Assembly: GCA_963805045.1 (NCBI GenBank)
Contig: CAWDTC010000025.1
Span: 42,372-106,371, forward strand
Length of the DNA: 64,000 bases
Reading direction: 5' to 3'
Origin: Candidatus Aminicenantes bacterium
GTDB lineage: Bacteria > Acidobacteriota > Aminicenantia > Aminicenantales > Saccharicenantaceae
The notes beneath the pieces were generated by a model that was not told the origin of the DNA, did not search any database, and saw only the letters and a program-made list of their open reading frames with translations. Positions within the stretch are counted from its first letter, which is position 1, and every line of letters starts with the position of its first letter. The translations under genes were made by a program, and so were the position numbers. Shown one piece after another: positions 11,439-27,594 of the stretch.

Positions 11439-12822
11439 CACAGCCCTCCTTGCGGTGAACCATGGGGGACAGTCCCCCCGGGAGGGGACTGTCCCTCTCT
11501 TTCTTCCGGGGGAGCGTCCGGACCCTGCCGGACCAGCCGGAGGATGACGGAGACGCCGGCCGCCGCGATGAGCGCGTAGACCGCGGCGAAGAGGACGAGC
11601 GAGAACAGGATCTGCCCCGCGGGCACGACGACGGAGACGGCGTCCGCCGTCCTGAGGACGCGGAAGACCGCCCAGGGCTGGCGGCCGACCTCGGCCGCGA
11701 ACCAGCCGAACTCGTTGGCGAGGTAGGGGAGAGGCACGGCCAGGACGAGGAGCCGGAGGTACCAGCGCGGGACGGCCTTCCCCTTCCGGGCGAGGAAGGC
11801 CGCGCCCGGGACGGCCATCACGATGAACAGCAGGCCGAGGAGGATCATCAGGTGGTATCCGGCGAAGGGCAGGAGGACGGGCGGCCGCTCGTTCTTGGGG
11901 AACTCCGAGAGCCCCCGGACCTCGGTGCCCGTGTCGAAACCGACGAGGAAGCTGAGAAGGCCTGGGATGCGGAACGGCGAGACGCGTCGTCTCGGCCTTC
12001 TCGTCGGGGATGCCGAAGACCGTGAACGGCGCCCCGGTCCGGGTCCGCCACAGGGCCTCGAAGGCGGCCATCTTCTCCGGCTGGGTCCGCGCGACCTGGA
12101 CCGAGTGGGCGTGGCCCGAGCCGAGCTGGAGGACCGACGCCGGCGACGAACACGGCCAGGGCCGTTCTCAGGAGGAGCCCGGCCTTGTTCCCGCGCCCTG
12201 TCCTTGAGGAGGAGCCAGGCGGCGATGGCCGCCGCGACGAGCGAGCCCGTGATCCAGCCGCCGAGGACGGTGTGGACGAAGCGGACGACGGTCGACGGGT
12301 TGAGGGCGGCCCGGCCGAAGTCCGTCAGGCAGGGCCCGGCCCGCCTCCATCCGGAAGCCCGCCGGCGTCTGCATCCAGGAGTTGGCGATGATGATCCAGA
12401 CCCCGGAGAGGTGGGAGGCGAAGAAGACGAGGAAGGCCGAGACCCAGTACATCTTCGGCGAGACGCGGCGCCGCCCGAAGACGAGGATGCCCAGGAAGAC
12501 GGATTCGAGGAAGAAGGAGAAGACGCCTTCGGCCGCGAGCGGCGCGCCGAAGATGTCGCCGACCGTCCGCGCATAGGCCGACCAGTTGTTGCCGAAGGCG
12601 AACTCGAGGGCGATCCCGGTGGCGACGCCCATGACGAAGACGACGCCCAGGATCCTGACGAGGAAGCTCGAGACGTCCCGGGCCAGTTCGTCCTTCTTCC
12701 GGAGAGAGCGGGATTCCAGGATGAGGATGACGAGCGTCAGGCCGAAGGTCGTCGGCGGGAAAGAGGAAGTGGAAACCGGCGGTCAGGCCGAACTGTAGCC
12801 GGGCCAGAAAGACCGGGTCCAT
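11438..12822 (-). CDS. cydA: Cytochrome bd ubiquinol oxidase subunit I (multiple frame breaks)
   Basis: N-terminus MDPVFLARLQFGLTAGFHFLFP (RBS AAGGAGG, ATG at 12822). Q-loop region GIALEFAFGNNWSAYARTVGDIFGAPLAAEG is in ORF 12168-12632. C-terminus is in ORF 11438-12574. The stop TGA overlaps the cydB ATG (ATGA). Confidence 0.75.
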
Positions 12823-12963
12823 GGGGCCCTCCTTCGCGCCGGCGGCCGGGATCAAGGGGGCCAGCCCCCGGGGGACCGACCTCTCCTGATTCCCCTTCCG
12901 GACGGCGAGGGAAATATAGACGAGGCCGCGCTCCGAATCAAGAGGGACGGTCCCCGCCCCGCG

Positions 12964-12991
12964 TTGCCCGACCCGACCGCTATGATAAAAT
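12964..12991 (+). promoter_or_regulatory. Candidate sigma70 promoter TTGCCC-16-TAAAAT for the CDF transporter gene
   Basis: Located in the divergent cydA/CDF intergenic region, about 30 nt upstream of the ATG at 13020. Confidence 0.3.
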
Positions 12992-13019
12992 AACAAACCT
13001 ACCGAGGTCGAAACCCCTC

Positions 13020-14450
13020 ATGCCCGAACGCCCGCCGCTCGAGGACGGCCTGTCCGTCAAGGAAAAGACGTCCGCCGCGGCGAACTCCGTCTTCGCCGCC
13101 CTCGCCCTGACCGGCATGAAGCCGCGGTCGGCCTCCTCTCCGGCTCTCTCGGCCTCCTGGCCGAAGCGGCCCACTCCGGCCTGGACCTCGTCGCCGCCGT
13201 CATCACCCTCCTCGCCGTCCGGGTCTCGGACCGCCCGGCCGACGAGGACCATCCCTACGGCCACGGCAAGGTCGAGAACTTCTCCGCCCTCGTCGAGACG
13301 CTCCTTCTCTTCGTCACGTGCGGCTGGATCCTCTACGAGGCCGTCCGCCGGCTCTTCTTCCGCGCCGTCGCGGTCACGCCCAGCGTGTGGGCCTTCCTCG
13401 TCGTCGTCGCGTCCATCGTCGTGAACATCTCGCGCTCCCGGATGCTCGGACCGCGCGGCGCGCCGGCACCGGAGCCAGGCCCTGGAGGCGGACGCCCTCC
13501 ACTTCTCGACCGACGTCTGGAGCTCGGCCGTCGTCCTCGCCGGGCTGGGCCTCGTCTGGCTCGGCCAGCACGCCCTGCCCGGCTATGGGCGCGTCCTCGA
13601 GAAGGCCGACGCCGCGGCCGCCATCGGCGTCGCCCTGATCATCCTCCTCGTCAGCTTCAAGCTGGGCAAGCGGACGGTCGACGTCCTCCTCGACTCGGCC
13701 CCGGACGGCCTTGCGGAGAGGATCGCCGAGGCGACGGCCGGGGTCGAGGGCGTCCTGCGGGCTGGCCAGGTCAGGGTCCGGCGCTCGGGCGCCCGGGTCT
13801 TCGTCGACATGAACGTCGAGGTCGACCGGAACCTCAGCTTCGAGCGGACCCATGCCATCGCCGACGCGGTCGAGGCCCGCGTCCGGTCCGTCACGCCCGG
13901 CGCCGACGTCGTCGTCCACACCGACCCGCGGGAGAGCGAGCGCGAGTCGATTGCCCGCCGCGTCCGGGCCGTGGCCGACCGCAACCTCGTCCCCGTCCAC
14001 AACATCAGCGTCCGCGAGGACGGGGGAGCCCTCTGTGTCGACCTCCACCTCGAAGTGGACGACCATCTCCTCCTCCACCAGGCCCACGAGCTGGCCAGCC
14101 GCATCGAGCAGGACCTCAAGGCCGACATCCCGGCCATCAAGAGCGTCAACACGCACATCGAGTCCCGGGGCACGGGTGTCGGCAGCGGCGTCGACGTGAC
14201 GGCCCAGGAGCCGGAGGTCGTCGCGACGGTCCGGCGGGTTGCCGACGCCGTCGTCGGCCGGCCCTGCTGTCACGACGTCATGGTCAGGCGGCAGGGCGGC
14301 CGGCTTTCCGTCTCGCTCCACTGCAGTTTCGACGCGGACCTGCCGGTCATCGAGGCCCACCGGATCTCGTCGCGGATCGAGGAGGCCCTGAAGGAGGAGG
14401 TCCCGGCCGTCGATTCCGTCCTGGTCCACACGGAGCCCGAGGGCCGTTGA
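13020..14450 (+). CDS. Cation diffusion facilitator (CDF) family metal efflux transporter with tandem C-terminal cytoplasmic domains (frameshifted)
   Basis: TM region (SAAANSVFAALALTG...HSGLDLVAAVITLLAV...DEDHPYGHGKVE) is recoverable across three frames in 13020-13800. ORF 13809-14450 encodes two cation-efflux C-terminal-domain repeats. Confidence 0.7.
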
Positions 14451-14484
14451 CCGGCCCTATGGTCCGGCCGGCAAGGGAGGGACG

Positions 14485-14970
14485 ATGACGAGCGACAGGA
14501 CGCCGATGACGCCGGCCGTGCGCGTCCTCAAGGACGCCGGCGTGGCCTTCAGCGAACATCCCTACCGTTACGTCGAGCGCGGCGGGACGGCGATCTTCGC
14601 CGCGGAGTCGGGCGTCGACGAGCATGCGGTCATCAAGACCCTCGTCATGGAGGACGACACGAAGCGGCCCTTCGTCGTCCTCATGCACGGCGACCGGGAG
14701 GTCTCGACCAGGGAAATGGCCCGCGTCCTGGGGGTCAAGACGGTCCGTCCGTGCGCGCCCGGGACGGCCCAGCGTCATTCGGGCTACATGGTCGGCGGCA
14801 CGTCGCCCTTCGGCCTGCGCAAGCCCATGCCGGTCTACGTCGAGGAGACGATTCTCGCTCTGCCGAAGATCTACATCAACGGGGGAAAGCGCGGCTTCCT
14901 CGTCGGCCTCGACCCGAAGGACCTGGCCCGTGTCCTCGGGCCGACCCCCGTCCGCGTCGCCACTGTTTAG
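14485..14970 (+). CDS. ybaK: Cys-tRNA(Pro)/Cys-tRNA(Cys) deacylase YbaK
   Basis: Intact 161-aa ORF typical of the YbaK/EbsC family (VLMHGDREVSTREMARVLG...GGTSPFG). Confidence 0.85.
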   Translation: MTSDRTPMTPAVRVLKDAGVAFSEHPYRYVERGGTAIFAAESGVDEHAVIKTLVMEDDTKRPFVVLMHGDREVSTREMARVLGVKTVRPCAPGTAQRHSGYMVGGTSPFGLRKPMPVYVEETILALPKIYINGGKRGFLVGLDPKDLARVLGPTPVRVATV

Positions 14971-14977
14971 AATCACG

Positions 14978-15210
14978 GAGGGACTGTCCCCGGCAGCGCC
15001 TGGGGGAGACTGAACCGCACATGACCTTCCGTCCAATCCCCGGGGCCGCTCAGGCTCTTAGGGTGGCGACGAGACCGTCCGAAAGCCCCCGTTTGGAGGG
15101 GGACCCGGCGGGATTTCCGACGGGGGAACCGGGACAGGTTCCCGGGGGCCGGGGGATAAGGACGGCCTTGGCGCCACCGCACCTGCTGACGCGGGGGACA
15201 GGACCTCTCC
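14978..15210. repeat. Copy 1 of a two-copy structured intergenic element (GGGAC-T-GTCCC palindrome, 27-nt module, hairpin-rich core of about 130 nt)
   Basis: Core 15057-15185 aligns with 45766-45907 (shared CCGTTTGGARGGGGACCCG, GGGGGAACCGGGACAGGTTCCCGGGG, CCGGGGGATAAGRACGGCCTTG and closing stem GTGGCGAC/GTCGCCAC with compensatory changes). Lies between the convergent ybaK and kdpD-N genes. Confidence 0.5.
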
Positions 15211-15221
15211 GACCGGGTTGG

Positions 15222-16913
15222 TCACCGCGCCGCTTCGCTGTCTTCCCAATCGCGGATCGTCCGTATGGCCTCCTCCGGGGTCCGGACCGACCTCAGGACC
15301 TGCATGAGTTGCCTGTTCTGGGCGGCCCGGCTGGCCAGGCCCAGCAGCTGGACCTGGGTCCCGGGGGTCTCGGCCGGGGACAGGAGGAGAAAGACGATCT
15401 CGATGGGCTTGTCCGTGGCCACGTCGATGACGCCCTCCTTCGTCAGCCCGAGGACGACGACCGGTTCCTTCAGTCCCTCCACCCGGACGTGGGGGAAGGC
15501 GACGCCCTCGTTGAAGAACGTCGAGCCCTGCGCCTCCCGCGCCATGATGGCCGCGAACAGGGCTTCGGCGTCCCCGCCGCCGGCCTCCGGTCCGACGGTC
15601 GCGGCCAGGGCGCACAGCACGCCTTCCCTCTCTGCGGCCGTCTCCCAGATGACGACCCGTGGGGAGGACAGCCACCGGCTGAGCCGGGGACGGTCCGCCG
15701 GCGCGGCGCCGGCGCCTCCGGCCGCAGCGACCCCCGCCGTTTCCTGCTCGGGGATCTCGGGCCGGGGCCGGACGGACTCCGGCAGGTCCTCGCACGTGTC
15801 GAGGACGATGACGGTGATCCCCCGGGCGTTCCTGATGAGAGCGTCGATGACGTTCCTGTTCCGGCCGAGCCGCTTCCAGAACGGCTTGGGCTGGGCCCGG
15901 CCGACGACGATGTGGCCGACCCGGTATTCCCGGGCGAAACGGAGGAGCGTGTCGGCGATGTCCTCCCCCTTGTAGGTGAAGACCATCGCCCCGAGCTGCT
16001 TGGCCAGGGTCAGGGAGTCCGAGAGATGGCGCTGGACTTCGGCGTCGATGACCGTGGCTTCCTCCGACGGCGTCTGGACATAGACGGCGTACCAGTTCCG
16101 GTTGAGCCTCCCCGCCAGCCGCGAGCCGTAGCGCAGGAGCTTCTCGCTGTTCGGGCCGTGCGAGCTCAGGCAGACCATGACCTGGTCGGACGAAGCGCCG
16201 GCCTCCGCCCCCTGCGCCTCCCGCCGCCGCAGGTCGATCTGCGAGGCCAGCTCCCGCAGGGTCAGCTCGCGGAGCTTCTCCAGGTTGGAGGGGGTGAAGA
16301 AATTGGCCAGGGCGGTCTCGATGCGTTCGGTCGGGTAGATCTTGCCGTCCTCCAGGCGCTGCCGCAGGTCCTCCGTGGCCAGGTCGACGTCGACGATCTC
16401 GTCGGCCTCGGCCAGGATCGAGTCGGGGATGCGCTCGCGGACCTTGACCCCGACGGCGTTCTCGACGATGTTGTAGAGGCTCTCGAGATGCTGGACGTTG
16501 AGCGTGGTGATGACGTGGATGCCGGCCGCCAGGATGTCCTGGACGTCCTCGTAGCGCTTGGCGTTCCGGCTGCCGGGGACGTTCGTGTGGGCCAGCTCGT
16601 CGATGAGGGCGACCTGGGGCTTGCGGGCCAGGATGGCGTCCACGTCCATCTCCTCGACGGCGATGCCGTGGTATTCCTGGGTGCGCCGCGGCACGACCTC
16701 GAGGCCCTGGGCGAGCCGGGCGATGTCCGCCCGGCCGTGCGTCTCGAGGAGGCCGATGACGACGTCGATGCCCTCGGCCTTGAGCCGGTGGCCCTCCTGG
16801 AGCATCTGGTAGGTCTTGCCGACGCCCGCGGAATAGCCGAGGTAGACCTTGAGCCGGCCCCGCTGGGCGCTGCGGATCATGCGGAGGAAGGCGTCGGCCT
16901 TATCGTCCGGCAC
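15222..16913 (-). CDS. Kinase-less KdpD sensor module: KdpD N-terminal domain + Usp domain fused to a PTS EIIA(Ntr)-like (EIIA type 2) domain
   Basis: KdpD-N signature LKVYLGYSAGVGKTYQML...ALIDELAHTN. A Usp-OKCHK-like region follows (VMVCLSSHGPNSEKLL...IVVG), then a Gly/Ala linker and an EIIA-2 fold with an active-site-like His (GVAFPHVR...IVFLLLSP). No HisKA/HATPase is present. Confidence 0.8.
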   Translation of the reverse strand: MPDDKADAFLRMIRSAQRGRLKVYLGYSAGVGKTYQMLQEGHRLKAEGIDVVIGLLETHGRADIARLAQGLEVVPRRTQEYHGIAVEEMDVDAILARKPQVALIDELAHTNVPGSRNAKRYEDVQDILAAGIHVITTLNVQHLESLYNIVENAVGVKVRERIPDSILAEADEIVDVDLATEDLRQRLEDGKIYPTERIETALANFFTPSNLEKLRELTLRELASQIDLRRREAQGAEAGASSDQVMVCLSSHGPNSEKLLRYGSRLAGRLNRNWYAVYVQTPSEEATVIDAEVQRHLSDSLTLAKQLGAMVFTYKGEDIADTLLRFAREYRVGHIVVGRAQPKPFWKRLGRNRNVIDALIRNARGITVIVLDTCEDLPESVRPRPEIPEQETAGVAAAGGAGAAPADRPRLSRWLSSPRVVIWETAAEREGVLCALAATVGPEAGGGDAEALFAAIMAREAQGSTFFNEGVAFPHVRVEGLKEPVVVLGLTKEGVIDVATDKPIEIVFLLLSPAETPGTQVQLLGLASRAAQNRQLMQVLRSVRTPEEAIRTIRDWEDSEAAR

Positions 16914-17493
16914 GGGGGACTCCGTCGAGCGCGAGGTTCAATTCAGGACGTTGACGCGGGGCTCGCCGAGGATGCCCAACGTCCGGCCCTCGGTCGTGGC
17001 CGCGACGAAGGCGAGGACATCCGACTCGGTCAGGCCGCGGGCCCGGGCGACGCGGCCGGCCTGGAGCCGGGCGTTCTCGGGGGAGATGTGGGGGTCGAGC
17101 CCGCTCCCCGAGGCGGTCACGGCGTCGGCCGGCACGGGCGTCCCCGGCGCGAGGCCGTTCTCCGCCCGGTATTCGGCGACCCGGCGCCGCACGGTCTCGA
17201 TCAGCTCCTTCGACAGCGGCCCGAGGTTTGACCCGCCGGAGGCCGTGGCGTCGTAGCCCTTCCCGGCCGCCGACGGACGCGGATGGAAATACCCCGGCCC
17301 GGCGAACCGCTGGCCGATGAGGTCCGAGCCGACGACGGCGCCGCTCCTCGCGACGAGCGAGCCGTTGGCCTCTGGCCGGGAAGAAGGCCTGAGCCAGGAC
17401 CCACGAGGCCAGCGGATAGAGGCCGCACAGAAGGACGGCCAGGGCGGCCACGGCCAGGAAGGACCGCCGGAGTTCCTCGAGCCAGCTCTTCAT
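16900..17493 (-). CDS. kdpC: K+-transporting ATPase subunit C (frameshifted)
   Basis: N-terminus [32 protein letters not shown] (ATG at 17493); C-terminus ...[13 protein letters not shown]...EPRVNVL/ELNLALD is split between ORFs 16938-17192 and 16900-17493. Confidence 0.75.
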
Positions 17494-17514
17494 CTCCGCG
17501 TTCCTTTCCCCATG

Positions 17515-19541
<2,027 letters not shown>

Positions 19542-19553
19542 CGTGCGACTCCC

Positions 19554-21408
19554 TTAGAACAGGACTCCCGAACCGGTCATCAGGAAGTGCTCGACGATCG
19601 GGCCGAGGGCCAGGGCGGGAAGGAACGTCAGGGCGCCGACGATGAGGACGGTCCCGACGAGGATGATGACGAACATCGGCCCGCTCACCGGGAAGCTCGC
19701 CTCGCCCGCCGGGACGAGCTTCTTCCGCGCCAGGCTCCCGGCCAGGGCCAGGACCGGCACGATCATGACGAAACGGCCGAAGAGCATGGCCAGGGCCAGG
19801 GTGACGTTGTACCAGGCGTGTTGCCGTTCAGCCCGGCGAAGGCGCTGCCGTTGTTGCCCGTGGCCGAGGAGAAGGCGTAGAGGATCTCGCTCAGGCCGTG
19901 GGGGCCGGCGTTGCCGAGGCCGGCCAGGCCCCAGCGGCTCGACCGACGGCCCAGGCGGCGAAGCCGAGGATGGAGAAGATGAGGATGAGGACGGCCAGGA
20001 CGGAGACCTTGACGTCGTAGGCCTCGATCTTCTTGCCGAGGTACTCGGGCGTCCGCCCGACCATCAGGCCGGTCAGGAAGACGGCCAGGACGACGAAGAC
20101 GAGCATCCCGTAGAGGCCCGAGCCGACGCCGCCGAAGACGACCTCGCCGAGCTGGATGTTGACGAGCGGGACGAGCCCGCCGAGCGGCGTGAACGAGTCG
20201 TGCATGGCGTTGACCGCGCCGCAGGAGGCGTCCGTCGTGACGGTGGCGAAGAGGGCGGAGTCGAAGACGCCGAAGCGGACCTCCTTGCCCTCCATGTTGC
20301 CGCCGCGCGGGTCGACGCCGAGGGCCTGCGAGCCGGGGATTGCCGGCGCTCTCGGCCCTCCAGCAGACGAGGACCGCGGCCAGGAAGAGGATGGCCATGG
20401 CCGTCCAGACGGCCCAGCCGTGCTTCTGGTTCTTGACCTTGCGGCCGAGGTAATAGGTGAGGCCGCTCGGGATGAGGAAGATCGAGAGCATCTGGATGAA
20501 GTTCGAGAGCGGCGTCGGGTTCTCGTAGGGATGGGCGGCGTTGGCGTTGAAGAAGCCGCCGCCGTTCGTGCCGAGCATCTTGATGGCCACCTGCGAGGCC
20601 GCCGGGCCCTGGGGGAGGGTCTGGGTCGTCCGGCCGCGTCCTTCCCGGGACCGGCCGTCGCCTCCGCGGTCGCCGCCCGGACGTAAGGCTTGAAGTTCTG
20701 GATGACGCCCTGGGACGATCAGGAAGAGCGGAGAAGACGAGCGAGAGCGGGAGCAGGAGGTAGAGGTTGACGCGGACGAGGTCGACCCAGAAGTTCCCGA
20801 TGGTCTTGGCCGAATGCCGGGCGATGCCCGCGGACCAGGGCCGCGGCGACGGCGATGCCGGCGGCGGCCGAGACGAAGTTGTGGAAGACGAGCCCGACCA
20901 TCTGCGAGAAATAGGACAGGGTCGATTCCCCGGCATAGTTCTGCCAGTTCGTGTTCGTGGTGAAGCTCGCCGCCGTGTTGAAGGCGAGGTCGGGGCGCGA
21001 CGCGGCCCGAACTCTGGGGGTTCAGGGGCAGGAGGTGCTGGAGGCGGAGGACGGCGTAGGTGAAGAGGAGCCCGACCAGGCTGAAGACGAGGAGGGAGAG
21101 GGTGTATTGCTGCCAGTCCTGCTCCTTCTTCCGGGTCGACGCCGAGGAGCCGGTAGAGGAGGCGCTCGACGGGCTTGAGCCGGCCGGTCCAGCCAGGTCC
21201 TGCCCTCGGGCTCGAGGACGCGGACGAGGTAGAGGCCGACCGGCTTCGTGAGGAGGAAGAGGACGCCGAGGAAGAGCGCGAGCTGGAGTCCAGCCGGAAG
21301 ATGTCCATCGCGATCATCGCCTCTCAAAACTTCTCCGGCCGGAGGACGCTCGAGCAAGAGATAGCCGATGAGCAGGAGCCCGACGATGAGCCCGATGATG
21401 TCGATCAT
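19554..21408 (-). CDS. kdpA: K+-transporting ATPase subunit A (several frame breaks)
   Basis: N-terminus [19 protein letters not shown] (ATG at 21408). Internal segments are in ORFs 20073-21317, 19891-20295 and 19763-20590; C-terminus in 19554-19787. Confidence 0.85.
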
Positions 21409-21410
21409 GG

Positions 21411-21495
21411 TCAGAGCCTCTCGCAGGCCCGGGCATACAGGGCGCAGAGCCCGAAGAAGACGCACGGCGATGAGCACGAAGAAGACGTCGCTCAT
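21411..21495 (-). CDS. kdpF: KdpF-like small membrane peptide (about 28 aa, one frame break)
   Basis: [12 protein letters not shown] then ATG at 21495. Peptide MSDVFFVLIAV...FFGLCALYARACERL read with a 1-nt shift. Its TGA lies immediately before the kdpA ATG. Its ATG overlaps the upstream HK stop (ATGA). Confidence 0.5.
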
Positions 21496-23349
21496 GACGC
21501 GGCTCCTCCTCGGCGCACCGCGTCGGCCCTCCTCAGCGTGAAGGAGAACGTCGCGCCCTGTCCCTCCCGGCTCTCGACGCCGACCGTTGCCGCCGTGGGC
21601 CTCGACGATCTCCTTGACGATGGCCAGCCCGAGCCCCGCGCCCCGGTCTCCGGCTCCTGCCCGGGAACGCGGAAGAACGGCTCGAAGATCCTGGCGAGGT
21701 ACTTCGCGGGGATGCCGGCGCCCGTATCGGCGACCGAGAAGCGGACCGACGTCCTCCTCTTCCTTGGCGCGACACGGTGATCCGCCCGCCGGGCGGCGTG
21801 TGCTTGAGGGCGTTCGAGAGCAGGTTGCCGAAGACGTGGCTGATCGGGTCGGTCGGCCAGGACCTCGGGCAGGTCTGCCGCGCACGTCGACGGCCAGCGT
21901 CACGCCCTGGTCCTGGGCCGCCCGGCGGAAGGGCTCGAGGGCGTCCATGACCAGCGTCTGCGGGCGAGATCGGCCTGGAAGTCCATGCTGGCCTTCCCCG
22001 ATTCCATGCGGCTGATGTCGAGGAGGTTGTTGAGGATGTCGTGGAGCCGGTCGCTGTCCTCCCGGGCCGCGACCAGGAGCTCGGCCTGCTTCTCGGTCAG
22101 GGCGCCGACCTTCTCCTCGAGAAGGAGGTGGATGGCCATGCGGATGGAGGTCAGGGGGGTCTTCAGCTGGTGGGAAACGGTCCGGATGACACTCCGCTTG
22201 ATCTCGTCCTGCTGCCGGAGCTGGGTGACGTCCTGGAGGACGAGGATGACGCCGGTCGGCTGCCGCTCGGCGTCCAGGATGGGGACGGCCTCCGGGCGGA
22301 AGAAGCGCTCCTCCCCGTCCACGAATGCTGGATGACCTTCTGCCGTTCGCGGGGCGGAACGGGCCGGCCCTCGCTGAGGGCCTCGTTGTAGAGATCGACG
22401 TCCAGTCCGAACGGCAGGTCGCGGATGGCGGACGCCCGGCCTCAGGCCGAAGACGGTCCTGGCCGGCTCCGTCGACGACCTCCACCTTTCCCTCGAGGTC
22501 GACGACGGCGACGGCGTCGGGCAGCTGTCGAAGGCCTGCTGTGTCGCCCGCTGGATGCGGAGGAGCTTGGCCTGGTCGGTCCGCCGGAACTCCCGCAGGC
22601 TGGCGGCCATGGCGTTGAACGCCTCGGCCAGGTGGCCGATCTCGTCGTGGGAATCGCTCGGGACGACGAGGTCGAGGTTGCCGCGCCGGATCTCGTCGGC
22701 GGACCGGATCAGGCGTTCGGATCGGGCCGGAGGATCCAGCGTCCGGGCGAAGACGATGAAGCGAGCGGCGACGAGCGTCCCCAGGCCGAGAAGGACGATA
22801 CATCTGCCGCCGGGCCGCGGCGGCGCTCTGCGCGGGCCCGGTCGTTGGCGTCGCTCATGTTCTGCTGGTTCATCTGGAGGATGTCGTCGGCCGTGGCCTT
22901 GATCTGCCCGAAGAGCGGGAGAAGGGCATGTGAAGTAGGCGTCCCGGCGGACGTCCGGCGGCCTGCGCCGGGTCGCTTGACCTTCTCCAGGGCCGCTGCG
23001 TACCGGCCGTAAAGATCCTTGAGCGCGCGGCCTTCTCGCCCTCGCCCGGCACGGTGATGTTGTTCAGCTCGACCTGGAGGGCCTTTTCGAAGACGCCTTC
23101 GTTCTTCAGGATGAGCTCCTCCCCCTGACGGGAGTCGCCGAGGAGGGTAAAGAGCAGGCCGCTGTCGATGCGCTCCAGGGCCTCCTTCATCTGCTGGCAG
23201 GCGATGACGCTCCGGTAGTTCTCGCGGAGGATGACGTCGATGGACTCGCCGAGCCGCGAGAGGTGGAGGATGCTCTGGCCGCCGATGACGAGGATGATGA
23301 CGAGCAGCCCGCCGAAGCCCAGGGAGATCTTCTGACGGAGTCCGAGCAT
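21492..23349 (-). CDS. Membrane sensor histidine kinase (non-KdpD type; periplasmic sensor domain, HisKA, HATPase), frameshifted
   Basis: RBS GGAAGGAGAGG then ATG at 23349: MLGLRQKISLGFGGLLVIILVIGG... (ORF 22870-23349). HisKA VSHQLKTPLTSIRMAIHLL (ORF 21900-22610). HATPase ...GLGLAIVKEIVEAHGG in a third frame; stop at 21492. Confidence 0.75.
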
Positions 23350-23373
23350 TGCCTCTCCTTCCGGCCTTCATAA

Positions 23374-23389
23374 TGCAAGAGCCATGCCA
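23374..23389 (-). promoter_or_regulatory. Sigma-54 (-24/-12) promoter CTGGCATGGCTCTTGCAT immediately upstream of the HK-kdpFABC operon
   Basis: Minus strand reads TGGCAT-N5-TTGCA. The GG-to-GC spacing is exactly as in the consensus TGGCAC-N5-TTGCA. The predicted start site falls at the RBS, about 14 nt before the ATG. Confidence 0.55.
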
Positions 23390-23481
23390 GAGTTGCGTGT
23401 CTTCATAAACTATTGAAAATGAATGTGTTGCATTTCGCCTGGCAAAGCGCGGCTTGCATTCGTCAAGGTGGACGGCGAATT

Positions 23482-23503
23482 GGCCATTGAAAAATGCAAT
23501 GCG
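23482..23503. promoter_or_regulatory. Candidate enhancer/UAS inverted repeat GGCCATTGAAAAATGCAATGCG, about 105 nt upstream of the sigma-54 -24 element
   Basis: Arms GCATTG/CAATGC. A near-identical motif (17/22) occurs at the same distance from a second sigma-54-like promoter at 27521-27542. Further TTGCAT repeats lie at 23427 and 23454. Confidence 0.4.
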
Positions 23504-23544
23504 ACCTGGAGGATCTTCGATCGGAGGCGACAGAGGCGCTTCAG

Positions 23545-24914
23545 CTAAAGGCCGTACTTCTTACGCCGCCGCCAGAGGGTGGCCTGGTCGATGCCGAGCA
23601 CGTCCGCCGCCTCCTGGAGGGAGTCGCGTCCTCGCCAGGACGCGCCGGATGTGCTGCTCCTCGATCTTGTCCAGGCTCACGCGGTCGCCGAGCCGGACCT
23701 CGGCGCCGCCGGGAACGACTCCCGCCGGCAGGCATTCGATGCCGACGCGGTCGTCGCGGCAGAGGATGGCGGCGCGCTCGACAGCGTTGCTCAGTTCGCG
23801 GACATTGCCCGGCCAGGCGTAGCCGGCCAGGGCGCGAAGGGCCTCGTCCGTGAAGCCCAGGTACGAGCGGTGGTTATTGCGGGCGTGAAAGGCCAGCAGC
23901 CGTTCCGCGAGCCCGGCAATGTCGCCCGGCCGCTCGCGGAGGGGAGGGATCTCGATCGGGATGACGTTCAGACGGTAATAAAGGTCCTCCCGGAAGCGGC
24001 CGTGCTTGACGGCGTCCTCGAGGCTCGTGTTCGTGGCCGCGATCAGCCGCACGTCCGCCTTCCGCGTGACCGTGTCGCCGACGCGCTCGTATTCCCGGTC
24101 CTGGACGAAGCGCAGGAGCTTCGGCTGGAGGGCGAGGGGCAGGTCGCCGATCTCGTCCAGGAAGAGCGTCCCGCCGTCGCTCGCGGCGATCCGGCCGGGG
24201 TTGTCGCGGACGGCGCCGGTGAAGGCGCCCTTGACGTGGCCGAAGAGCTCGCTTTCGAGCAGCTCCGGCGAGAAAGAGGGGCAGGAGATCAGGCTGAACG
24301 GCTTCCCCGCCCGGGGGCTCCAGGAATGGATGGCCCGCGCCAGGACCGTTTTGCCCGTGCCGCTCTCGCCGCGAAGGAGGAGCGTCGCCTCGGATGCCGC
24401 GGCCTGGCGGGCCAGGGCCGCCGCCCTCTGCATGGCCGGGTTCGAACTCGAAAAATCGACCTCCGGACGCTGGCGGCCCAGGTCCTCCTGTAGGGCGGCG
24501 ACCTTCTGCTCGAGCGTCCGGACCTCGAAGACCTTCCGGACGGCCAGGTTGATCTGGGCCGGCGTGAACGGCTTGGGGATGTAATCGGTCGCTCCCCGCC
24601 GCATGGCCTCGACGGCCGTATCGATGGAGGCGTAGGCGGTGATGACGATGATCTTGAGCCAGGGCGTCGCCGCGAGGAGGGGCGGGATGAGGTCGAGGCC
24701 GTCGTCGGTGCCCAGCCGGAGGTCGACGAAGGCCAGGTCGAAGGAACGGCGTGCGGCCTCGGCCAGGGCGTCCTGGAAATTGCTGACCGCCGATGACCTT
24801 GTGGCCTTCCGTCTCGAGACAGAGGGCCAGCGTCTTGCGGATGTTGAGCTCGTCGTCCACGACCAGGACATGGAGGGACGGGCTCACGGCCGGGATGCTC
24901 TTTTCGGGCCCCAT
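23545..24914 (-). CDS. Sigma-54-dependent (NtrC-family) response regulator: REC - AAA+ sigma54-activation domain (GAFTGA) - Fis-type HTH; frame breaks near both ends
   Basis: N-terminus MGPEKSIPAVSPSLHVLVVDDE (ATG at 24914). AAA+ with GESGTGKT and GAFTGA. C-terminal HTH ...EAADVLGIDQATLWRRRKKYGL* read in a shifted frame (stop at 23545). Confidence 0.8.
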
Positions 24915-24937
24915 GGGACGATCCGCTTCGGGCCCCA

Positions 24938-24966
24938 AGCATAGCGGACATCCGGGGGAAAAGCAA
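24938..24966 (-). promoter_or_regulatory. Candidate sigma70 promoter TTGCTT-17-TATGCT for the response-regulator gene
   Basis: Minus strand: TTGCTT (24966-24961), 17-nt spacer, TATGCT (24943-24938), about 25 nt upstream of the ATG at 24914. Confidence 0.35.
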
Positions 24967-25105
24967 CACGCAGCCAAGCGATGGACGGGGCATGTCCTCC
25001 CACGGCAGACAGGGCCTTCCTCGGGCTGGAAGGTTCCCATTTGCCGTGTTTCGGACTACAATAAGGGTGTCAAAGTCAGGACATGGGTAATCCCCCGGAG
25101 GCGTC

Positions 25106-25879
25106 ATGACACTCAAGAAGAAACTGACTTTGGGCCTGGGGTTCTTGTTCCTCATCATATTCTTTTTGGGGATTTTCTGCTCCTACCATATCGGCAGCCT
25201 CTCGCAGGACGCCGAGAACATCCTGAAAGACAATTACAAATCACTCGTCTACTCCAGGAACATGATCTCGGCCCTCGAGGACATGCGGACGGCCGTCAGC
25301 AGCATTATTTTCAACGTGCCCGAAGCTAAGGAGACATCAGACTACTACCTGAAGCTCTTTGAAGCCGGCCGGATCGAATTCGAAGCCAATCTCAAGTCCG
25401 AGAACGGCAACATCACCGAGATCCATGAAAGCGATTACGTGGCCGCGGTCAACCGGGATTATGTTCTGTACGCAAGCCTCTGCCAGCGCCTCGTCAAGGG
25501 GGAGGGCGGCCGCGCGCTCTATTTCAATGAATACCAACCCGCCTTTGAAAAACTCAGGCACGCCATCATCAGCATCAACGACGTTAACATGCAGGCCGTC
25601 GAGCGGAAAAATCAGATCGCAAAGCAGGATTCGGCCAGGACCATCAGCCTTATGGCCGGCATCGGGGCCTTTTGCCTGCTCCTGGCGTTCGGCTATTTTT
25701 GGTACTTCCCGGTTTACATCTCCAACTCGATCAGCTATCTTGCGGACAGGATGAAGACGCTCCTGAAGAAGTCCAACATCGTCCTCGATATCAGGACGGA
25801 CGACGAAGCCTTCATCGTCTTGCAGGGCATCAACCTGCTTGAGAACAAGCTGGACGTCAAAGACAATGGACAGGCCTAG
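25106..25879 (+). CDS. Orphan membrane-anchored sensor-domain protein (two TM segments, no output domain); paralog of the HK sensor domain
   Basis: MTLKKKLTLGLGFLFLIIFFLGIF...ENILKDNYKSLVYSRNMISALEDM aligns with the HK N-terminus ...DVILRENYRSVIACQQMKEALERI. A second TM is near the C-terminus. RBS GGAGG. The gene is visibly lower in GC than its flanks. Confidence 0.6.
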   Translation: MTLKKKLTLGLGFLFLIIFFLGIFCSYHIGSLSQDAENILKDNYKSLVYSRNMISALEDMRTAVSSIIFNVPEAKETSDYYLKLFEAGRIEFEANLKSENGNITEIHESDYVAAVNRDYVLYASLCQRLVKGEGGRALYFNEYQPAFEKLRHAIISINDVNMQAVERKNQIAKQDSARTISLMAGIGAFCLLLAFGYFWYFPVYISNSISYLADRMKTLLKKSNIVLDIRTDDEAFIVLQGINLLENKLDVKDNGQA

Positions 25880-25896
25880 AGGCCTGCGGATGGATT

Positions 25897-27201
25897 CTAA
25901 AAGGTGAAGAGGGCGTCCACGCTGAATGTCAACTGATCTTGATGGCCGCCGTCGAAGGCCGCGCGGTCAGAGTGGTCGTAGCGAACTTCAGGCCGGAACA
26001 GCACATGCGAGAGGATATGGTCTTTTGGGAACGGCTTGATCGCCATGCCCATGGTTGCCTCACGGTAGTCGGCGCTGACGGGCGCACCGGTGGAAAAGCC
26101 ATTGGCGGCGTCTTTGTACCACTCCAGCCGGGTGTTCAGTGTGAAGTGCGTATCGATCGCGAAGCTTACGTAGCCAGCCACGCCACCCCACTGCTTAACA
26201 CCGTCCGGTAAGCCCGGGATGTGCGGCGCGACGACGTAGTCAACGCCCAAGCCGAGGCTGAATTTGTCAGTGACCTTGTGGGTCATAACCAAGTCCAAGG
26301 CGGTCCACCAGTCGCTGTTGTCGCCCGGAGGCAGATTCGTTCCGACGCCCGCCGGGAACTCCGGGCCTTCCGTCATCACGAAAATGACGGAAGTCTTGTC
26401 GCTGGGCGTATAGATCACGCGGCCCAAGAAGTCCAGGGAATCGTTAGCGTCGCGCGTCGACTGGTTCCAGCCGCGCGTGAAGCCGGCGTCAAACGTCCAC
26501 TGGCGGTTAAGCACGACGGTGGCTAATACGCCCGTCTGCGTGCCAGACTCGGCATAGAGAAACTGATAACTGTAAGAATAAAGTGCCCTGGCCGGATCAC
26601 CGAAAGCCCCGTAGATGTTAGCGCTGAACTGCTCGAAACCGGCCAGCTCGATCCATTTGCCCACGCGGAGTCGAAGCGGCAAGCCCGGGAGGGTCACGTC
26701 CACATAAGCTTGGAGAAGGTCCCATTGATTGCGCCCGGTCTGCGTATCCATCATGCCGTTCGAGTGGATGAACGCCGCATCTGCGCCATAGATGCCTTCC
26801 CCGTGGAAACCCACGTTAAATGCCTTCTTGGTCGGATCGACCGTGCGCTCGATATTCAAACTGATCTTGTCAAGGATGACCGTGTTCTTGAAATTGTTAT
26901 ATCCGATGTAGGTCGGGCCGGGACTGTCAGGCGCGGAGAGGTCGTAAAAGTAACCGCCTTGAGCATAGCCGTAGATGTTGATCCTGGCCTTGTTCAAAGG
27001 CCCAGCTATTCCCCCCTCGGCCAAAGCCGTCATCAGCGGCCCCGGTGTCGGCACGGTCGTGGTCGGCGGACTTGCTTCCTGGATCTTTTCCTTGTCCGAT
27101 GTCGCTGCCGGTGCATTTTGGCCGGCGCGCAATGGGATATTGATCCAAGCGGCAAGGAGCGCACAGCTGACTGCGGCAATCCCGAATTTAACGACTTTCA
27201 T
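25897..27201 (-). CDS. Outer-membrane beta-barrel protein (porin-like), with a signal peptide
   Basis: RBS AAGGTGA then ATG at 27201: MKVVKFGIAAVSCALLAAWINIPLRAG. Alternating amphipathic strands; C-terminal ...SVDALFTF (terminal Phe). Confidence 0.6.
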   Translation of the reverse strand: MKVVKFGIAAVSCALLAAWINIPLRAGQNAPAATSDKEKIQEASPPTTTVPTPGPLMTALAEGGIAGPLNKARINIYGYAQGGYFYDLSAPDSPGPTYIGYNNFKNTVILDKISLNIERTVDPTKKAFNVGFHGEGIYGADAAFIHSNGMMDTQTGRNQWDLLQAYVDVTLPGLPLRLRVGKWIELAGFEQFSANIYGAFGDPARALYSYSYQFLYAESGTQTGVLATVVLNRQWTFDAGFTRGWNQSTRDANDSLDFLGRVIYTPSDKTSVIFVMTEGPEFPAGVGTNLPPGDNSDWWTALDLVMTHKVTDKFSLGLGVDYVVAPHIPGLPDGVKQWGGVAGYVSFAIDTHFTLNTRLEWYKDAANGFSTGAPVSADYREATMGMAIKPFPKDHILSHVLFRPEVRYDHSDRAAFDGGHQDQLTFSVDALFTF

Positions 27202-27413
27202 GGGTGTCACCTTGGTTAAAGGATGTGCGATCTCTTCCGGATTCGGTTGCGACGGTCGAGCGACTATCATCAATCCGCTGCACGATTTGCGAGAACTGAC
27301 GGTCGAGGATATGCACGACTGTATTTCCTATGGGACGGCTGGCTTTCTGGATGTTTGTTTTTGATTTCATGGATTTAAGGGGGCTTGGCGTTTTTTTCCG
27401 AGAGACCGGATAG

Positions 27414-27431
27414 TGCAAGATATATACCAAC
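27414..27431 (-). promoter_or_regulatory. Sigma-54-like promoter GTTGGTATATATCTTGCA (TGGTAT-N5-TTGCA) about 210 nt upstream of the OMP gene
   Basis: Exact GG-N10-GC spacing; a TGGTAT -24 variant is known from nif promoters; shares an upstream motif with the kdp sigma-54 promoter. Confidence 0.35.
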
Positions 27432-27520
27432 AGATCTTTACTGTATCTGATTAAAAATAAATGAGTTTTTCGAAGTTCGAGTTCCGGGCCTGGTTGCACT
27501 AATCAATTAAGGTCGCGAAT

Positions 27521-27542
27521 GGGCATTGAGAAATGCAACGGC
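27521..27542. promoter_or_regulatory. Second copy of the candidate UAS motif GGGCATTGAGAAATGCAACGGC, about 104 nt upstream of the -24 element
   Basis: 17/22 identity with 23482-23503, and the same distance to its promoter. Confidence 0.35.
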
Positions 27543-27594
27543 GGCGGCCTTCATCGCCGCCACGAGCTTACTTATTAAGCTTGTTTCGTTCGAA

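What the first reader, a model, noticed from the sequence alone, without database searches (positions are those of the whole stretch)
15222..24914. A kdpFABC operon controlled by a sigma-54 two-component system instead of KdpDE
Order on the minus strand: NtrC-type RR (GAFTGA), then UAS, then a -24/-12 promoter, then a sensor HK (non-KdpD), then kdpF, kdpA, kdpB, kdpC, then KdpD-N/Usp/EIIA. The HK stop overlaps the kdpF start (ATGA) and the kdpF stop abuts the kdpA ATG, so the kinase is co-translated with the pump. No OmpR-type KdpE is present. I am not aware of sigma-54-dependent kdp regulation being described.
Basis: partly seen in the sequence, partly recalled or inferred. Interest (0 to 1): 0.7.

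Follow-up and report, generated by a model that had tools for sequence, protein, structure and literature searches.

The report
Sigma-54 two-component control of Kdp pump
This is a potassium-pump (kdp) operon switched on by an NtrC-type, sigma-54-dependent two-component system; the arrangement is real and shared by hundreds of anaerobe genomes, but it was already described in Desulfovibrio vulgaris, and the copy in this window is riddled with probably technical frameshifts.

Summary
It runs NtrC-type regulator (GAFTGA), two palindromic upstream sites, a -24/-12 promoter, a non-KdpD histidine kinase, kdpFABC, then a KdpD-N/Usp/EIIA protein.

Two corrections apply:
- The regulator, the kinase, kdpA, kdpB, kdpC and both small ORFs are broken by single-base frameshifts. 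These occur across the window and are mostly +1, so they are probably assembly errors.
- The ORF overlapping the kinase stop is not kdpF. It is a separate conserved 27-aa peptide (ORF-X), and kdpF follows it.

Comparative evidence for sigma-54 control is strong. The kinase family occurs in at least 226 species genomes, with the same synteny in nearly all loci inspected. A positioned -24/-12 element occurs in 67 of 83 loci (0.5 expected), and paired TTGCA-N3-TGCAA sites in 58 of 83.

The novelty claim fails. The sigma-54 regulator DVU3334 of D. vulgaris binds a similar palindrome before kdpFABC (Rajeev 2011; Kazakov 2015), and its S. fumaroxidans orthologue has this same layout.

The last gene is best read as a short KdpD serine kinase acting on KdpB. 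Its fused EIIA-Ntr domain, ORF-X and a sensor-only paralogue appear undescribed.

Verdict: new member of a known kind, of modest interest.

The parts
23545..24914 (-). NtrC-type response regulator (REC, sigma-54 AAA+ domain with GAFTGA, Fis-type HTH). It is broken by two +1 frameshifts, near 24794 and 23623.
   Evidence: Pfam hits. GAFTGA found. It is 80% identical to the intact 455-aa orthologue in L002, with frame junctions shown. The C-terminal HTH and stop are read directly.
23487..23499 (-). Upstream activator site 1, TTGCATTTTTCAA (family consensus TTGCA-N3-TGCAA).
   Evidence: Paired sites occur in 58 of 83 related loci against 1.55 in controls, and 54 pairs are spaced 31-33 bp apart. 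The site resembles the DVU3334 site CGTTACATTTTGTAACG.
23454..23466 (-). Upstream activator site 2, TTGACGAATGCAA, 33 bp downstream of site 1.
23406..23418 (-). AT-rich IHF-like site TTTCAATAGTTTA, one mismatch from WATCAANNNNTTR. This is weak evidence.
   Evidence: The exact consensus lies at this position in 10 of 67 related loci, against 0.14-0.36 expected. The sequence is read.
23374..23389 (-). Sigma-54 type -24/-12 promoter TGGCATGGCTCTTGCA, ending 24 nt before the kinase ATG.
   Evidence: An element with at most 2 mismatches lies 15-60 nt (most at 22-36 nt) upstream of the kinase start in 67 of 83 loci, against 0.5 in random segments.
21492..23349 (-). Sensor histidine kinase, about 613 aa in intact orthologues. 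It has a TM segment, a periplasmic 4HB_MCP-like sensor, a second TM segment, then HAMP, PAS, HisKA and HATPase_c. It has no KdpD-N, Usp or GAF domains. It carries several frameshifts here.
   Evidence: Pfam hits. Thousands of homologues of 610-615 aa. Frame hops.
21411..21495 (-). ORF-X, a conserved 26-28 aa hydrophobic peptide (MSDVFFVLIAV/FFGLCALYARACERL). Its ATG overlaps the kinase stop (ATGA). It is 85 nt here, that is one extra base.
   Evidence: An HMM finds 56 hits among 14,944 small ORFs: 53 directly after the kinase and 2 directly before kdpF in the variant gene order. The 4-nt overlap with the kinase stop occurs in 34 of 53 loci. No Pfam or NCBIfam family matches.
21324..21408 (-). 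kdpF ([27 protein letters not shown]). It is 85 nt here, that is one extra base.
   Evidence: The clean orthologue matches TIGR02115 and Pfam Potass_KdpF above their cut-offs.
19554..21317 (-). kdpA, with at least 7 frame junctions.
   Evidence: Pfam KdpA. tblastn against the L002 KdpA.
17515..19541 (-). kdpB (P-type ATPase subunit; the TGES motif is present), with four +1 frameshifts.
   Evidence: The fragments are 70-95% identical to the L002 KdpB.
16938..17493 (-). kdpC, with one +1 frameshift.
   Evidence: Pfam KdpC. Junction.
15222..16913 (-). Short KdpD without a histidine-kinase part. It has a KdpD N-terminal domain (Walker A GYSAGVGK33T, Walker B D106-E107), a Usp domain and a C-terminal EIIA-Ntr-like domain (His475). 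It is an intact 563-aa ORF.
   Evidence: Pfam hits. NCBIfam KdpD_non_kinase aligns over residues 7-370 but scores below its cut-off. The best solved-structure matches of the C-terminus are all PtsN/EIIA-Ntr, with the active-site His aligned. The catalytic residues and the His are invariant in 58 of 58 family members.
25106..25879 (+). Sens2, a 257-aa sensor-only paralogue of the kinase's periplasmic domain (4HB_MCP-like plus TM segments, no transmitter). It is divergent from the regulator gene and has low GC (0.53).
   Evidence: Orthologues 60-79% identical lie directly after the short kdpD gene in L007, L008, L011, L064 and L076, and beside the kinase gene in L032 and L067. A remnant is present in L002 and L003.

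Best explanation
The locus is a member of a widespread kdp regulatory module. The module couples a sigma-54-dependent two-component system for transcription with a short KdpD for post-translational control of the pump.

Proposed mechanism:
1. The membrane kinase senses a signal through its strongly conserved periplasmic four-helix-bundle domain and/or its cytoplasmic PAS domain. The signal is presumably low K+ or osmotic stress. This step is inferred.
2. The kinase phosphorylates the NtrC-type regulator encoded just upstream. This step is inferred.
3. The regulator binds two TTGCA-N3-TGCAA palindromes about 65-125 nt upstream of the -24 element. The sites are shown by conservation, and binding of a related palindrome is shown for the D. 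vulgaris orthologue.
4. By ATP hydrolysis and GAFTGA contact, the regulator opens the sigma-54 holoenzyme at TGGCAT-N5-TTGCA. This follows from the known properties of the family.
5. One transcript then carries the kinase, ORF-X, kdpF, kdpA, kdpB, kdpC and the short kdpD. This rests on overlapping or closely spaced genes and the absence of internal promoter or terminator signals. The kinase is thereby positively autoregulated and translationally coupled to ORF-X.
6. The last gene product is the atypical serine kinase chain of KdpD. By analogy with E. coli and Deinococcus KdpD, it phosphorylates KdpB Ser in TGES to shut the pump off. This step is inferred.
7. Its Usp domain and its fused EIIA-Ntr domain (invariant His475) are the likely inputs, for example the phosphorylation state of a PTS-Ntr-like relay. 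This step is inferred.

The frameshifts in this particular copy are most likely insertion-biased assembly errors.
For: - Domain content.
- Promoter and upstream sites in the window.
- Family size: the kinase family has at least 226 species-level genome hits in Aminicenantes, Thermodesulfobacteriota (Syntrophobacter, Desulfomonile, Smithella, Syntrophorhabdaceae), Nitrospirales, Deferrimicrobium and Hydrogenedentota.
- Synteny: the order regulator-kinase-kdpA-B-C-short kdpD holds in nearly all loci with enough flank, and in 14 of 16 metagenome loci.
- Promoter: a -24/-12 element lies at a fixed distance in 67 of 83 loci, against 0.5 expected.
- Upstream sites: two palindromes spaced 31-33 bp apart occur in 58 of 83 loci, against 1.55 expected.
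- Variant gene order: where the kinase lies after kdpC (L059, L061, L062), the upstream sites and the promoter stay in front of ORF-X-kdpF-kdpA.
- Experimental precedent: DVU3334 (sigma-54 regulator) binds CGTTACATTTTGTAACG at -149 of kdpF (DVU3339.1). It is co-operonic with a PAS kinase and a KdpD-N/Usp protein (PMC3333781). Its S. fumaroxidans orthologue Sfum_2622 has the motif upstream of the neighbouring kinase gene. Kazakov 2015 lists it under potassium uptake.
- Serine-kinase reading: Silberberg 2024 (PMC11018627). The Walker A and B motifs and the Arg are invariant in 58 of 58 members, and TGES is present in KdpB.
- EIIA domain: the best matches are PtsN structures, with the His aligned, and the His is invariant.
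- Frameshifts: they are window-wide and 19 of 24 are +1. The correctly framed fragments remain 70-95% identical to orthologues.
Against: - No experiment exists for this lineage.
- rpoN could not be found in the 64-kb window or in the flanks of related loci. Its presence is inferred only from the conserved activator and the -24/-12 elements.
- The rest of the genome could hold a canonical KdpDE.
- The signal sensed by the kinase is unknown.
- I could not align the D. vulgaris proteins directly, so orthology to DVU3334 rests on the paper's own orthologue table and on motif similarity.
- The D. vulgaris palindrome (TTACA-N3-TGTAA) differs from the one here at one position per half-site.
- No near-identical clean contig was found (best 84% aa). 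Real pseudogenisation in this organism is therefore not excluded.
- Serine-kinase activity and any role of the EIIA domain are extrapolated from E. coli and Deinococcus.
Confidence: 0.8

Rival explanations
1. The frameshifts are real. In this organism the whole kdp module, along with several neighbouring genes, is a decaying set of pseudogenes and nothing here is expressed as a functional system.
For: At least 20 frame junctions break the regulator, kinase, kdpA, kdpB, kdpC, ORF-X and kdpF. No near-identical intact contig was found to prove that they are errors.
Against: - The junctions are spread over at least 8 genes in 23 kb, including unrelated housekeeping-type genes: the S9 peptidase, the CDF transporter and cydA.
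- Nineteen of 24 are +1 and 15 are exactly one extra base. Natural decay gives a mix dominated by deletions, plus nonsense mutations.
- The correctly framed fragments stay 70-95% identical to orthologues.
Confidence: 0.12
2. The two-component system only autoregulates the kinase, or serves some other target. The pump genes are controlled by something else, such as a canonical KdpDE elsewhere in the genome or an internal promoter.
For: The genome outside the window is unseen. In D. vulgaris two further regulators (DVU0596 and DVU3305) also bind the kdp promoter, so extra inputs are plausible.
Against: - The kinase stop overlaps the ORF-X start in 34 of 53 loci.
- ORF-X, kdpF, kdpA, kdpB, kdpC and kdpD are separated by 2-25 nt or overlap.
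- No convincing internal sigma-70 promoter or terminator was found.
- In the variant gene order the sigma-54 promoter sits directly before ORF-X-kdpF-kdpA without the kinase in between.
- The kinase-kdp linkage holds across several phyla.
- No OmpR-type regulator is present in the window.
Confidence: 0.07
3. The KdpD-N/Usp/EIIA protein is not mainly a serine kinase for KdpB. Instead it is the cytoplasmic sensing half of a split KdpD that docks on the kinase and modulates its kinase/phosphatase balance. Its fused EIIA domain would play the part that free EIIA-Ntr plays on E. coli KdpD. This is compatible with the main explanation and differs only in the target of the last gene product.
For: - Rajeev et al. 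read the D. vulgaris pair DVU3336/DVU3335 as a kinase split into two ORFs.
- From established knowledge of the E. coli and Rhizobium systems, unphosphorylated EIIA-Ntr binds KdpD and stimulates its kinase.
- Some loci keep the kinase and the short KdpD adjacent without pump genes between them (L025, L048; L116).
Against: - The kinase here lacks the TM/GAF part of KdpD and belongs to a different sensor class.
- The Walker A and B catalytic residues needed for serine-kinase activity are invariant in 58 of 58 members.
- Short KdpD retained downstream of the pump is explained by the serine-kinase role in Silberberg 2024.
Confidence: 0.3

Closest known systems
Desulfovibrio vulgaris Hildenborough DVU3334-DVU3339.1 (sigma-54-dependent regulator DVU3334, PAS kinase DVU3335, KdpD-N/Usp protein DVU3336, kdpFABC), with the orthologous pair Sfum_2622/Sfum_2621 in Syntrophobacter fumaroxidans
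   Same: - An NtrC-family regulator with GAFTGA.
- A separate non-KdpD kinase.
- A KdpD-N/Usp protein without a kinase part, encoded after kdpC.
- A palindromic site of the form TTRCA-N3-TGYAA about 150 nt upstream of the first gene of the operon. It is at -149 in D. vulgaris and about -150 here.
- S. fumaroxidans has the same regulator, then site, then kinase layout, and a Syntrophobacter sp. genome (L040) belongs to the family found here.
   Different: - Gene order differs. D. vulgaris has kdpFABC, KdpD-N/Usp, kinase, regulator in one operon. Here the regulator is upstream on its own and the kinase is the first gene of the pump operon.
- The half-site differs by one base.
- The EIIA domain, ORF-X and Sens2 are not mentioned for D. 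vulgaris.
- I could not obtain the D. vulgaris sequences to check whether it has them.
Escherichia coli KdpDE-kdpFABC
   Same: The same pump (KdpF, A, B, C), the same KdpD N-terminal and Usp module, and two-component control of transcription.
   Different: - E. coli uses an OmpR-type KdpE at a sigma-70 promoter, and a single KdpD chain carrying KdpD-N, Usp, 4 TM segments, GAF and DHp/CA.
- Here the regulator is an AAA+ activator of sigma-54.
- The kinase has a periplasmic four-helix-bundle, HAMP and PAS domains.
- The KdpD-N/Usp module is a separate protein.
Short KdpD (KdpD-N/Usp atypical serine kinase) retained downstream of the pump with a separate two-component system, as in Deinococcus, Anabaena and Alicyclobacillus (Silberberg et al. 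2024)
   Same: A kinase-less KdpD chain is encoded after kdpC. The Walker A (G-X5-GKT), Walker B (DE) and Arg residues are conserved, and the histidine kinase is on another chain.
   Different: - A C-terminal EIIA-Ntr-like domain is fused here. This version is not among the KdpD versions described in that paper.
- The accompanying two-component system is sigma-54-dependent.
- The Deinococcus enzyme is regulated by c-di-AMP, which is untested here.
EIIA-Ntr (PtsN) interaction with KdpD in E. coli and Rhizobium
   Same: The C-terminal domain matches PtsN structures best (1A6J, 2A0J, 3URR, 4GQX), with the phosphorylatable His aligned and invariant. In those organisms free PtsN binds KdpD and modulates kdp expression (established knowledge).
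   Different: Here the domain is covalently fused to the KdpD-N/Usp chain. It scores below the PtsN equivalog cut-offs. No NPr/HPr or EI gene lies in the window or the flanks.

Membership tests
Sigma-54-dependent promoter with bacterial enhancer-binding protein | A -24 GG and -12 GC element with fixed 10-nt spacing (TGGCAC-N5-TTGCW) in front of the regulated gene | tested here: met
   TGGCATGGCTCTTGCA lies at 23389..23374. An element occupies the same position in 67 of 83 related loci, against 0.5 in controls.
Sigma-54-dependent promoter with bacterial enhancer-binding protein | An activator with a Sigma54_activat AAA+ domain carrying GAFTGA, plus a DNA-binding HTH and upstream binding sites | tested here: met
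   Pfam PF00158 at 1.2e-64, AAA_lid_14 and REC. GAFTGA is present. HTH_8 is present in orthologues. Paired palindromes are conserved.
Sigma-54-dependent promoter with bacterial enhancer-binding protein | rpoN present in the genome | not testable with these tools
   No RpoN-box peptide occurs in the 64-kb window or in 160 related loci. The rest of the genome is not available.
KdpFABC P-type K+ pump | KdpA, KdpB, KdpC and KdpF genes together | tested here: met
   Pfam KdpA and KdpC. KdpB fragments are 70-95% identical to the L002 KdpB. The kdpF orthologue scores above the TIGR02115 and PF09604 cut-offs.
KdpFABC P-type K+ pump | Intact reading frames in this window | tested here: not met
   There are at least 7 frame junctions in kdpA, 4 in kdpB and 1 each in kdpC and kdpF. 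They are probably technical.
Canonical KdpD/KdpE two-component system | A single KdpD chain with KdpD-N, Usp, TM/GAF and DHp/CA domains, plus an OmpR-type KdpE | tested here: not met
   The KdpD-N/Usp protein has no TM, GAF or kinase part. The kinase has no KdpD-N, Usp or GAF domains. No winged-helix regulator is in the window (the query was KdpE recalled from memory). The genome outside the window was not tested.
KdpD-like non-kinase potassium sensor (NCBIfam NF038185), the short KdpD serine kinase | Full-length match above the curated cut-off | tested here: not met
   The score is 367.5 bits against a cut-off of 550, although the alignment covers residues 7-370 of the protein and 7-369 of the 373-position profile.
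KdpD-like non-kinase potassium sensor (NCBIfam NF038185), the short KdpD serine kinase | Walker A G-X5-GKT, Walker B D-E and the adenine-coordinating Arg of the atypical serine kinase site | tested here: met
   GYSAGVGK33T, D106-E107 and the R of DLRQRL are invariant in 58 of 58 family members. The residues are defined in PMC11018627. Enzymatic activity was not tested.
EIIA-Ntr (PtsN) | PTS_EIIA_2 fold with a phosphorylatable His | tested here: met
   PF00359 scores 59.8 bits against a cut-off of 27. His475 aligns with the active-site His of PtsN 1A6J and is invariant in 58 of 58 members.
EIIA-Ntr (PtsN) | PtsN equivalog score (TIGR01419 / NF008145) | tested here: not met
   Scores are 42.9 and 41.9 bits against cut-offs of 138.7 and 221. 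It is a related domain, not a PtsN orthologue.
KinB/AlgB (label given by JGI/KEGG to kinase homologues) | Orthology to the P. aeruginosa KinB-AlgB alginate regulators | not tested
   Only an automatic source label supports this. The constant linkage to kdp genes argues that the label is generic.

The most novel reading that the evidence does not exclude
This reading goes beyond the already known sigma-54 control. The module would carry three undescribed parts.
1. A short KdpD serine kinase with a covalently fused EIIA-Ntr domain, whose invariant His475 is phosphorylated by a PTS-Ntr-like relay. This would wire nitrogen/carbon status directly to post-translational shut-off of the K+ pump, a Rosetta-stone fusion of the PtsN-KdpD interaction known from E. 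coli.
2. ORF-X, a conserved 27-aa membrane peptide translationally coupled to the kinase and always placed directly before kdpF. It would be a fifth subunit or assembly/regulatory peptide of the pump.
3. Sens2, a sensor-only paralogue of the kinase's periplasmic domain that modulates signalling.
Probability: 0.4. Interest if true: 0.55.

Novelty: new member of a known kind. Interest (0 to 1): 0.35.

Why it matters
Textbook kdp regulation is KdpDE acting at a sigma-70 promoter. This locus belongs to a module found in at least 226 species-level genomes of uncultured or hard-to-grow anaerobes, including Aminicenantes, syntrophic Thermodesulfobacteriota, Nitrospirales and Hydrogenedentota. In this module the pump is instead placed under sigma-54 and an NtrC-type activator. 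So far only one laboratory model (D. vulgaris) documents this.

The comparative data define the module's promoter, its binding-site pair and its parts. That makes the regulon predictable in metagenome-assembled genomes.

The fused EIIA-Ntr domain on the serine-kinase chain offers a direct, testable link between the PTS-Ntr and the recently discovered post-translational control of KdpB. ORF-X is a candidate unannotated small membrane protein of a well-studied pump.

For genome scanning, the case is also a warning. High-GC windows with insertion-rich assembly errors produce long false ORFs and hide short real ones.

Tried and rejected
1. I looked for a near-identical, cleanly assembled contig to decide between assembly error and pseudogene, using a metagenome scan with the intact KdpD-N protein. 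The best hit is only 84% identical, so the test failed. I fell back on the direction and spread of the frame junctions.
2. I mapped frameshifts by GC3 phase. The result was too noisy in this GC-rich sequence to be useful. The sequence context of the junctions shows short C/G runs but no clear homopolymer rule.
3. I searched for rpoN (RpoN box), HPr/NPr and diadenylate cyclase motifs in the window and in 160 related loci. Nothing was found, so these questions stay open.
4. I searched the plasmid collection with the kinase to find annotated cultured examples. Only generic WalK/PnpS-like kinases at 26-31% identity came up, which is irrelevant.
5. Simple sigma-70 promoter and terminator scans inside the operon gave nothing convincing. 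This is weak negative evidence only.
6. An IHF site between the upstream sites and the promoter is present as an exact consensus in only 10 of 67 loci. I kept it as a minor feature.
7. I could not obtain the D. vulgaris DVU3334-3336 sequences with the available collections. Orthology is therefore argued through the paper's orthologue table.
8. I considered and rejected the JGI label 'KinB' as a functional assignment.
9. Structure prediction was not run. The tools return no coordinates or inter-domain error, so it could not test domain docking.

Full report
**Observation.**
- First comes a response regulator with REC, Sigma54_activat and AAA_lid domains. GAFTGA is at about 24229, and the protein ends in a Fis-type HTH (...LGIDQATLWRRRKKYGL*).
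- A 195-nt, 51% GC intergenic region follows.
- Next is a histidine kinase with a weak 4HB_MCP-like periplasmic domain, HAMP, PAS, HisKA and HATPase_c.
- Then come kdpA, kdpB and kdpC.
- Last is an intact 563-aa protein with KdpD N-terminal, Usp and PTS_EIIA_2 domains.

The intergenic region carries TGGCATGGCTCTTGCA at 23389..23374, ending 24 nt before the kinase ATG at 23349. There are only three matches with at most one mismatch in the whole window, against 0.8 expected.

**Two corrections.**
First, the window does not contain intact genes for most of these proteins.
- I used the proteins of a clean syntenic contig (L002) as guides. It shares the same neighbours: S9 peptidase, PhzF, porin, YbaK-like gene, CDF transporter and cydAB.
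- tblastn then shows the reading frame hopping repeatedly. There are 2 junctions in the regulator, several in the kinase, at least 7 in kdpA, 4 in kdpB and 1 in kdpC.
- Outside the locus there are also 5 in the S9 peptidase, 2 in the CDF transporter and 2 in cydA.
- Of 24 junctions, 19 are +1 (mod 3) and 15 are exactly one extra base. The correctly framed pieces remain 70-95% identical to the orthologues.
- A window-wide, insertion-biased pattern points to assembly or sequencing error rather than decay of this locus.
- I could not prove this, because the closest public relative of the intact KdpD-N protein is only 84% identical.

Second, the ORF whose ATG overlaps the kinase stop (ATGA) is not kdpF.
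- In clean relatives the kinase is followed by two small ORFs. The first is a 27-aa peptide, MIDLLFILLAFLFFGLCDLYARACERL, which I call ORF-X. The second is the real kdp[28 protein letters not shown].
- The second matches TIGR02115 and Pfam Potass_KdpF above their cut-offs. ORF-X matches nothing.
- In the window both are 85 nt, that is 84 plus one inserted base.

**How widespread the arrangement is.**
- The kinase has thousands of homologues of 610-615 aa.
- A scan of one genome per species found at least 226 species with a relative. The best 80 come from Aminicenantes, Thermodesulfobacteriota (Syntrophobacter, Desulfomonile, Smithella, Syntrophorhabdaceae), Nitrospirales, Deferrimicrobium, Hydrogenedentota and others.
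- In nearly every locus with enough flank the order is regulator, kinase, kdpA, kdpB, kdpC, KdpD-N/Usp/EIIA. The same holds in 14 of 16 metagenome loci found with the KdpD-N protein.

**Promoter and upstream sites.**
- A -24/-12 element with at most two mismatches to TGGCAC-N5-TTGCW lies 15-60 nt (most at 22-36 nt) upstream of the kinase start in 67 of 83 loci. Random segments of the same loci give 0.5 on average and at most 3.
- Aligning the regions on the promoter reveals two copies of the palindrome TTGCA-N3-TGCAA.
- At least two sites occur in 58 of 83 loci, against 1.55 in controls. Fifty-four of the pairs are spaced 31-33 bp apart, about three helical turns.
- In the window the sites are TTGCATTTTTCAA (23499..23487) and TTGACGAATGCAA (23466..23454).
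- An exact IHF consensus lies between the sites and the promoter in 10 of 67 loci, against 0.14-0.36 expected. The window has a one-mismatch version.
- In three loci with a different gene order (regulator, then ORF-X-kdpF-A-B-C, then the kinase, then short KdpD), the palindromes and TGGCACGCTCGTTGCT stay in front of ORF-X and the pump genes. The promoter therefore belongs to the pump operon, not merely to the kinase.

**Operon structure.**
- The kinase stop overlaps the ORF-X start by 4 nt in 34 of 53 loci.
- The following genes are 2-25 nt apart or overlap.
- Simple scans find no convincing internal promoter or terminator.
- One transcript running from the kinase through the short kdpD is the natural reading.

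**Prior art.**
- Rajeev et al. 2011 (PMC3333781) mapped the targets of all D. vulgaris response regulators. [quoted passage not shown] - The DVU3334 site is CGTTACATTTTGTAACG at -149 of DVU3339.1. This is TTACA-N3-TGTAA, the same architecture as the palindrome found here and at about the same distance. Site 1 in the window starts 150 nt before the kinase ATG.
- Their orthologue table lists Sfum_2622 of S. fumaroxidans (46% identical to DVU3334). [quoted passage not shown]
- That is the regulator, then site, then kinase layout of the present family, which includes a Syntrophobacter sp. genome (L040).
- Kazakov et al. 2015 (PMC4641369) list DVU3334 (GAFTGA) with targets DVU3339.1-DVU3337 under 'Potassium uptake'.

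**The last gene.**
- Silberberg et al. [quoted passage not shown]
- They also showed that short KdpD-N/Usp chains are kept downstream of the pump in species where a separate two-component system controls transcription, and that the Deinococcus enzyme responds to c-di-AMP.
- The window protein has Walker A GYSAGVGK33T, Walker B D106-E107 and the conserved Arg. All are invariant in 58 of 58 full-length family members. KdpB keeps TGES.
- What that paper does not describe is the C-terminal domain present here. Its best solved-structure matches are all PtsN/EIIA-Ntr proteins, with the phosphorylatable His aligned. That His (His475) is invariant in 58 of 58 members.
- A search of cluster representatives finds roughly a dozen 50%-identity clusters with the full KdpD-N/Usp/EIIA architecture.
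- Free EIIA-Ntr is known to bind KdpD in E. coli and Rhizobium (established knowledge). The fusion therefore looks like a hard-wired version of that contact.
- Literature searches for such a fusion found nothing.

**ORF-X and Sens2.**
- An HMM built from ORF-X sequences hits 56 of 14,944 small ORFs in all loci. Fifty-three lie directly after the kinase, and two lie directly before kdpF in the variant order where the kinase is elsewhere.
- ORF-X therefore travels with the pump genes. It may be an unannotated small membrane component or regulator of the pump.
- Divergent from the regulator gene, the window encodes a 257-aa protein (25106..25879). It resembles the kinase's periplasmic sensor (25% identity) but has no transmitter, and its GC is 0.53 against 0.69 for its neighbours.
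- Orthologues 60-79% identical sit directly after the short kdpD gene or beside the kinase gene in seven other Aminicenantes loci. L002 and L003 keep a remnant.

**What could not be settled.**
- No RpoN box, NPr/HPr or diadenylate cyclase motif was found in the window or the flanks of related loci.
- No OmpR-type regulator is in the window.
- The rest of the genome is unseen.
- The signal sensed by the kinase is unknown.

**Verdict.**
The genes, promoter and upstream sites are real. The reading frames are broken and kdpF was mis-assigned.
- The interpretation of sigma-54-dependent control is well supported by conservation and by an experimental precedent.
- That same precedent removes the claimed novelty.
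- The locus is a new member, in Aminicenantes, of a known kind of kdp regulatory module.
- The EIIA-Ntr fusion on the short KdpD, ORF-X and Sens2 are modestly interesting features that appear undescribed.

Noticed in passing
window 11,500-31,500 (measured); probably the whole window: Single-base frameshifts break many genes, including the S9 peptidase, CDF transporter, cydA, kdpA, kdpB, kdpC, the kinase and the regulator. Nineteen of 24 frame junctions are +1. This looks like insertion-biased assembly error, and it produces long false ORFs on both strands of this 68% GC sequence.
   Followed up: partly
window 21411-21495 (-); L002 11839-11922: ORF-X is a conserved, unannotated 26-28 aa hydrophobic peptide (consensus M-x-D-...-FFGLCxLYxxACERL). 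It lies directly before kdpF in 55 loci from several phyla and is usually translationally coupled to the kinase stop. It matches no Pfam or NCBIfam family.
   Followed up: yes
window 25106-25879 (+): Sens2 is a sensor-only paralogue of the kinase's periplasmic four-helix-bundle domain, 257 aa with GC 0.53 against 0.69 around it. It recurs at kdp loci of seven other Aminicenantes genomes, in varying positions. L002 and L003 keep only a 34-aa remnant.
   Followed up: partly
window 15222-15740 (-), residues about 400-563 of the short KdpD: An EIIA-Ntr-like domain with an invariant active-site His (His475) is fused to the KdpD-N/Usp serine-kinase chain. About a dozen 50%-identity clusters share this architecture. 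It was not found in the literature searched.
   Followed up: yes
representative proteins P0129, P0135, P0139-P0146: Proteins of about 750 aa match the KdpD-N/Usp query in two stretches, the better one at residues about 400-750. They look like tandem double KdpD-N/Usp chains, another KdpD variant.
   Followed up: no
L025, L048 and L116: In some loci the kinase and the short KdpD/EIIA gene are directly adjacent, with no pump genes between them or with a divergent kdpA type (38-41% identity) elsewhere in the locus. This hints at a functional link between the kinase and the short KdpD.
   Followed up: no
window 527-6674 (-): A hybrid histidine kinase (HisKA, HATPase_c, REC) lies next to a 1178-aa REC-PilZ-methyltransferase protein. 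This is another signalling pair unrelated to kdp.
   Followed up: no
window 59979-59994 (-) and 61564-61579 (+): Two further one-mismatch matches to the -24/-12 consensus occur (TGGCGCGGCAGTTGCT and TGGCAGAGGCGTTGCT). No second GAFTGA activator is in the window, and their context was not examined.
   Followed up: no
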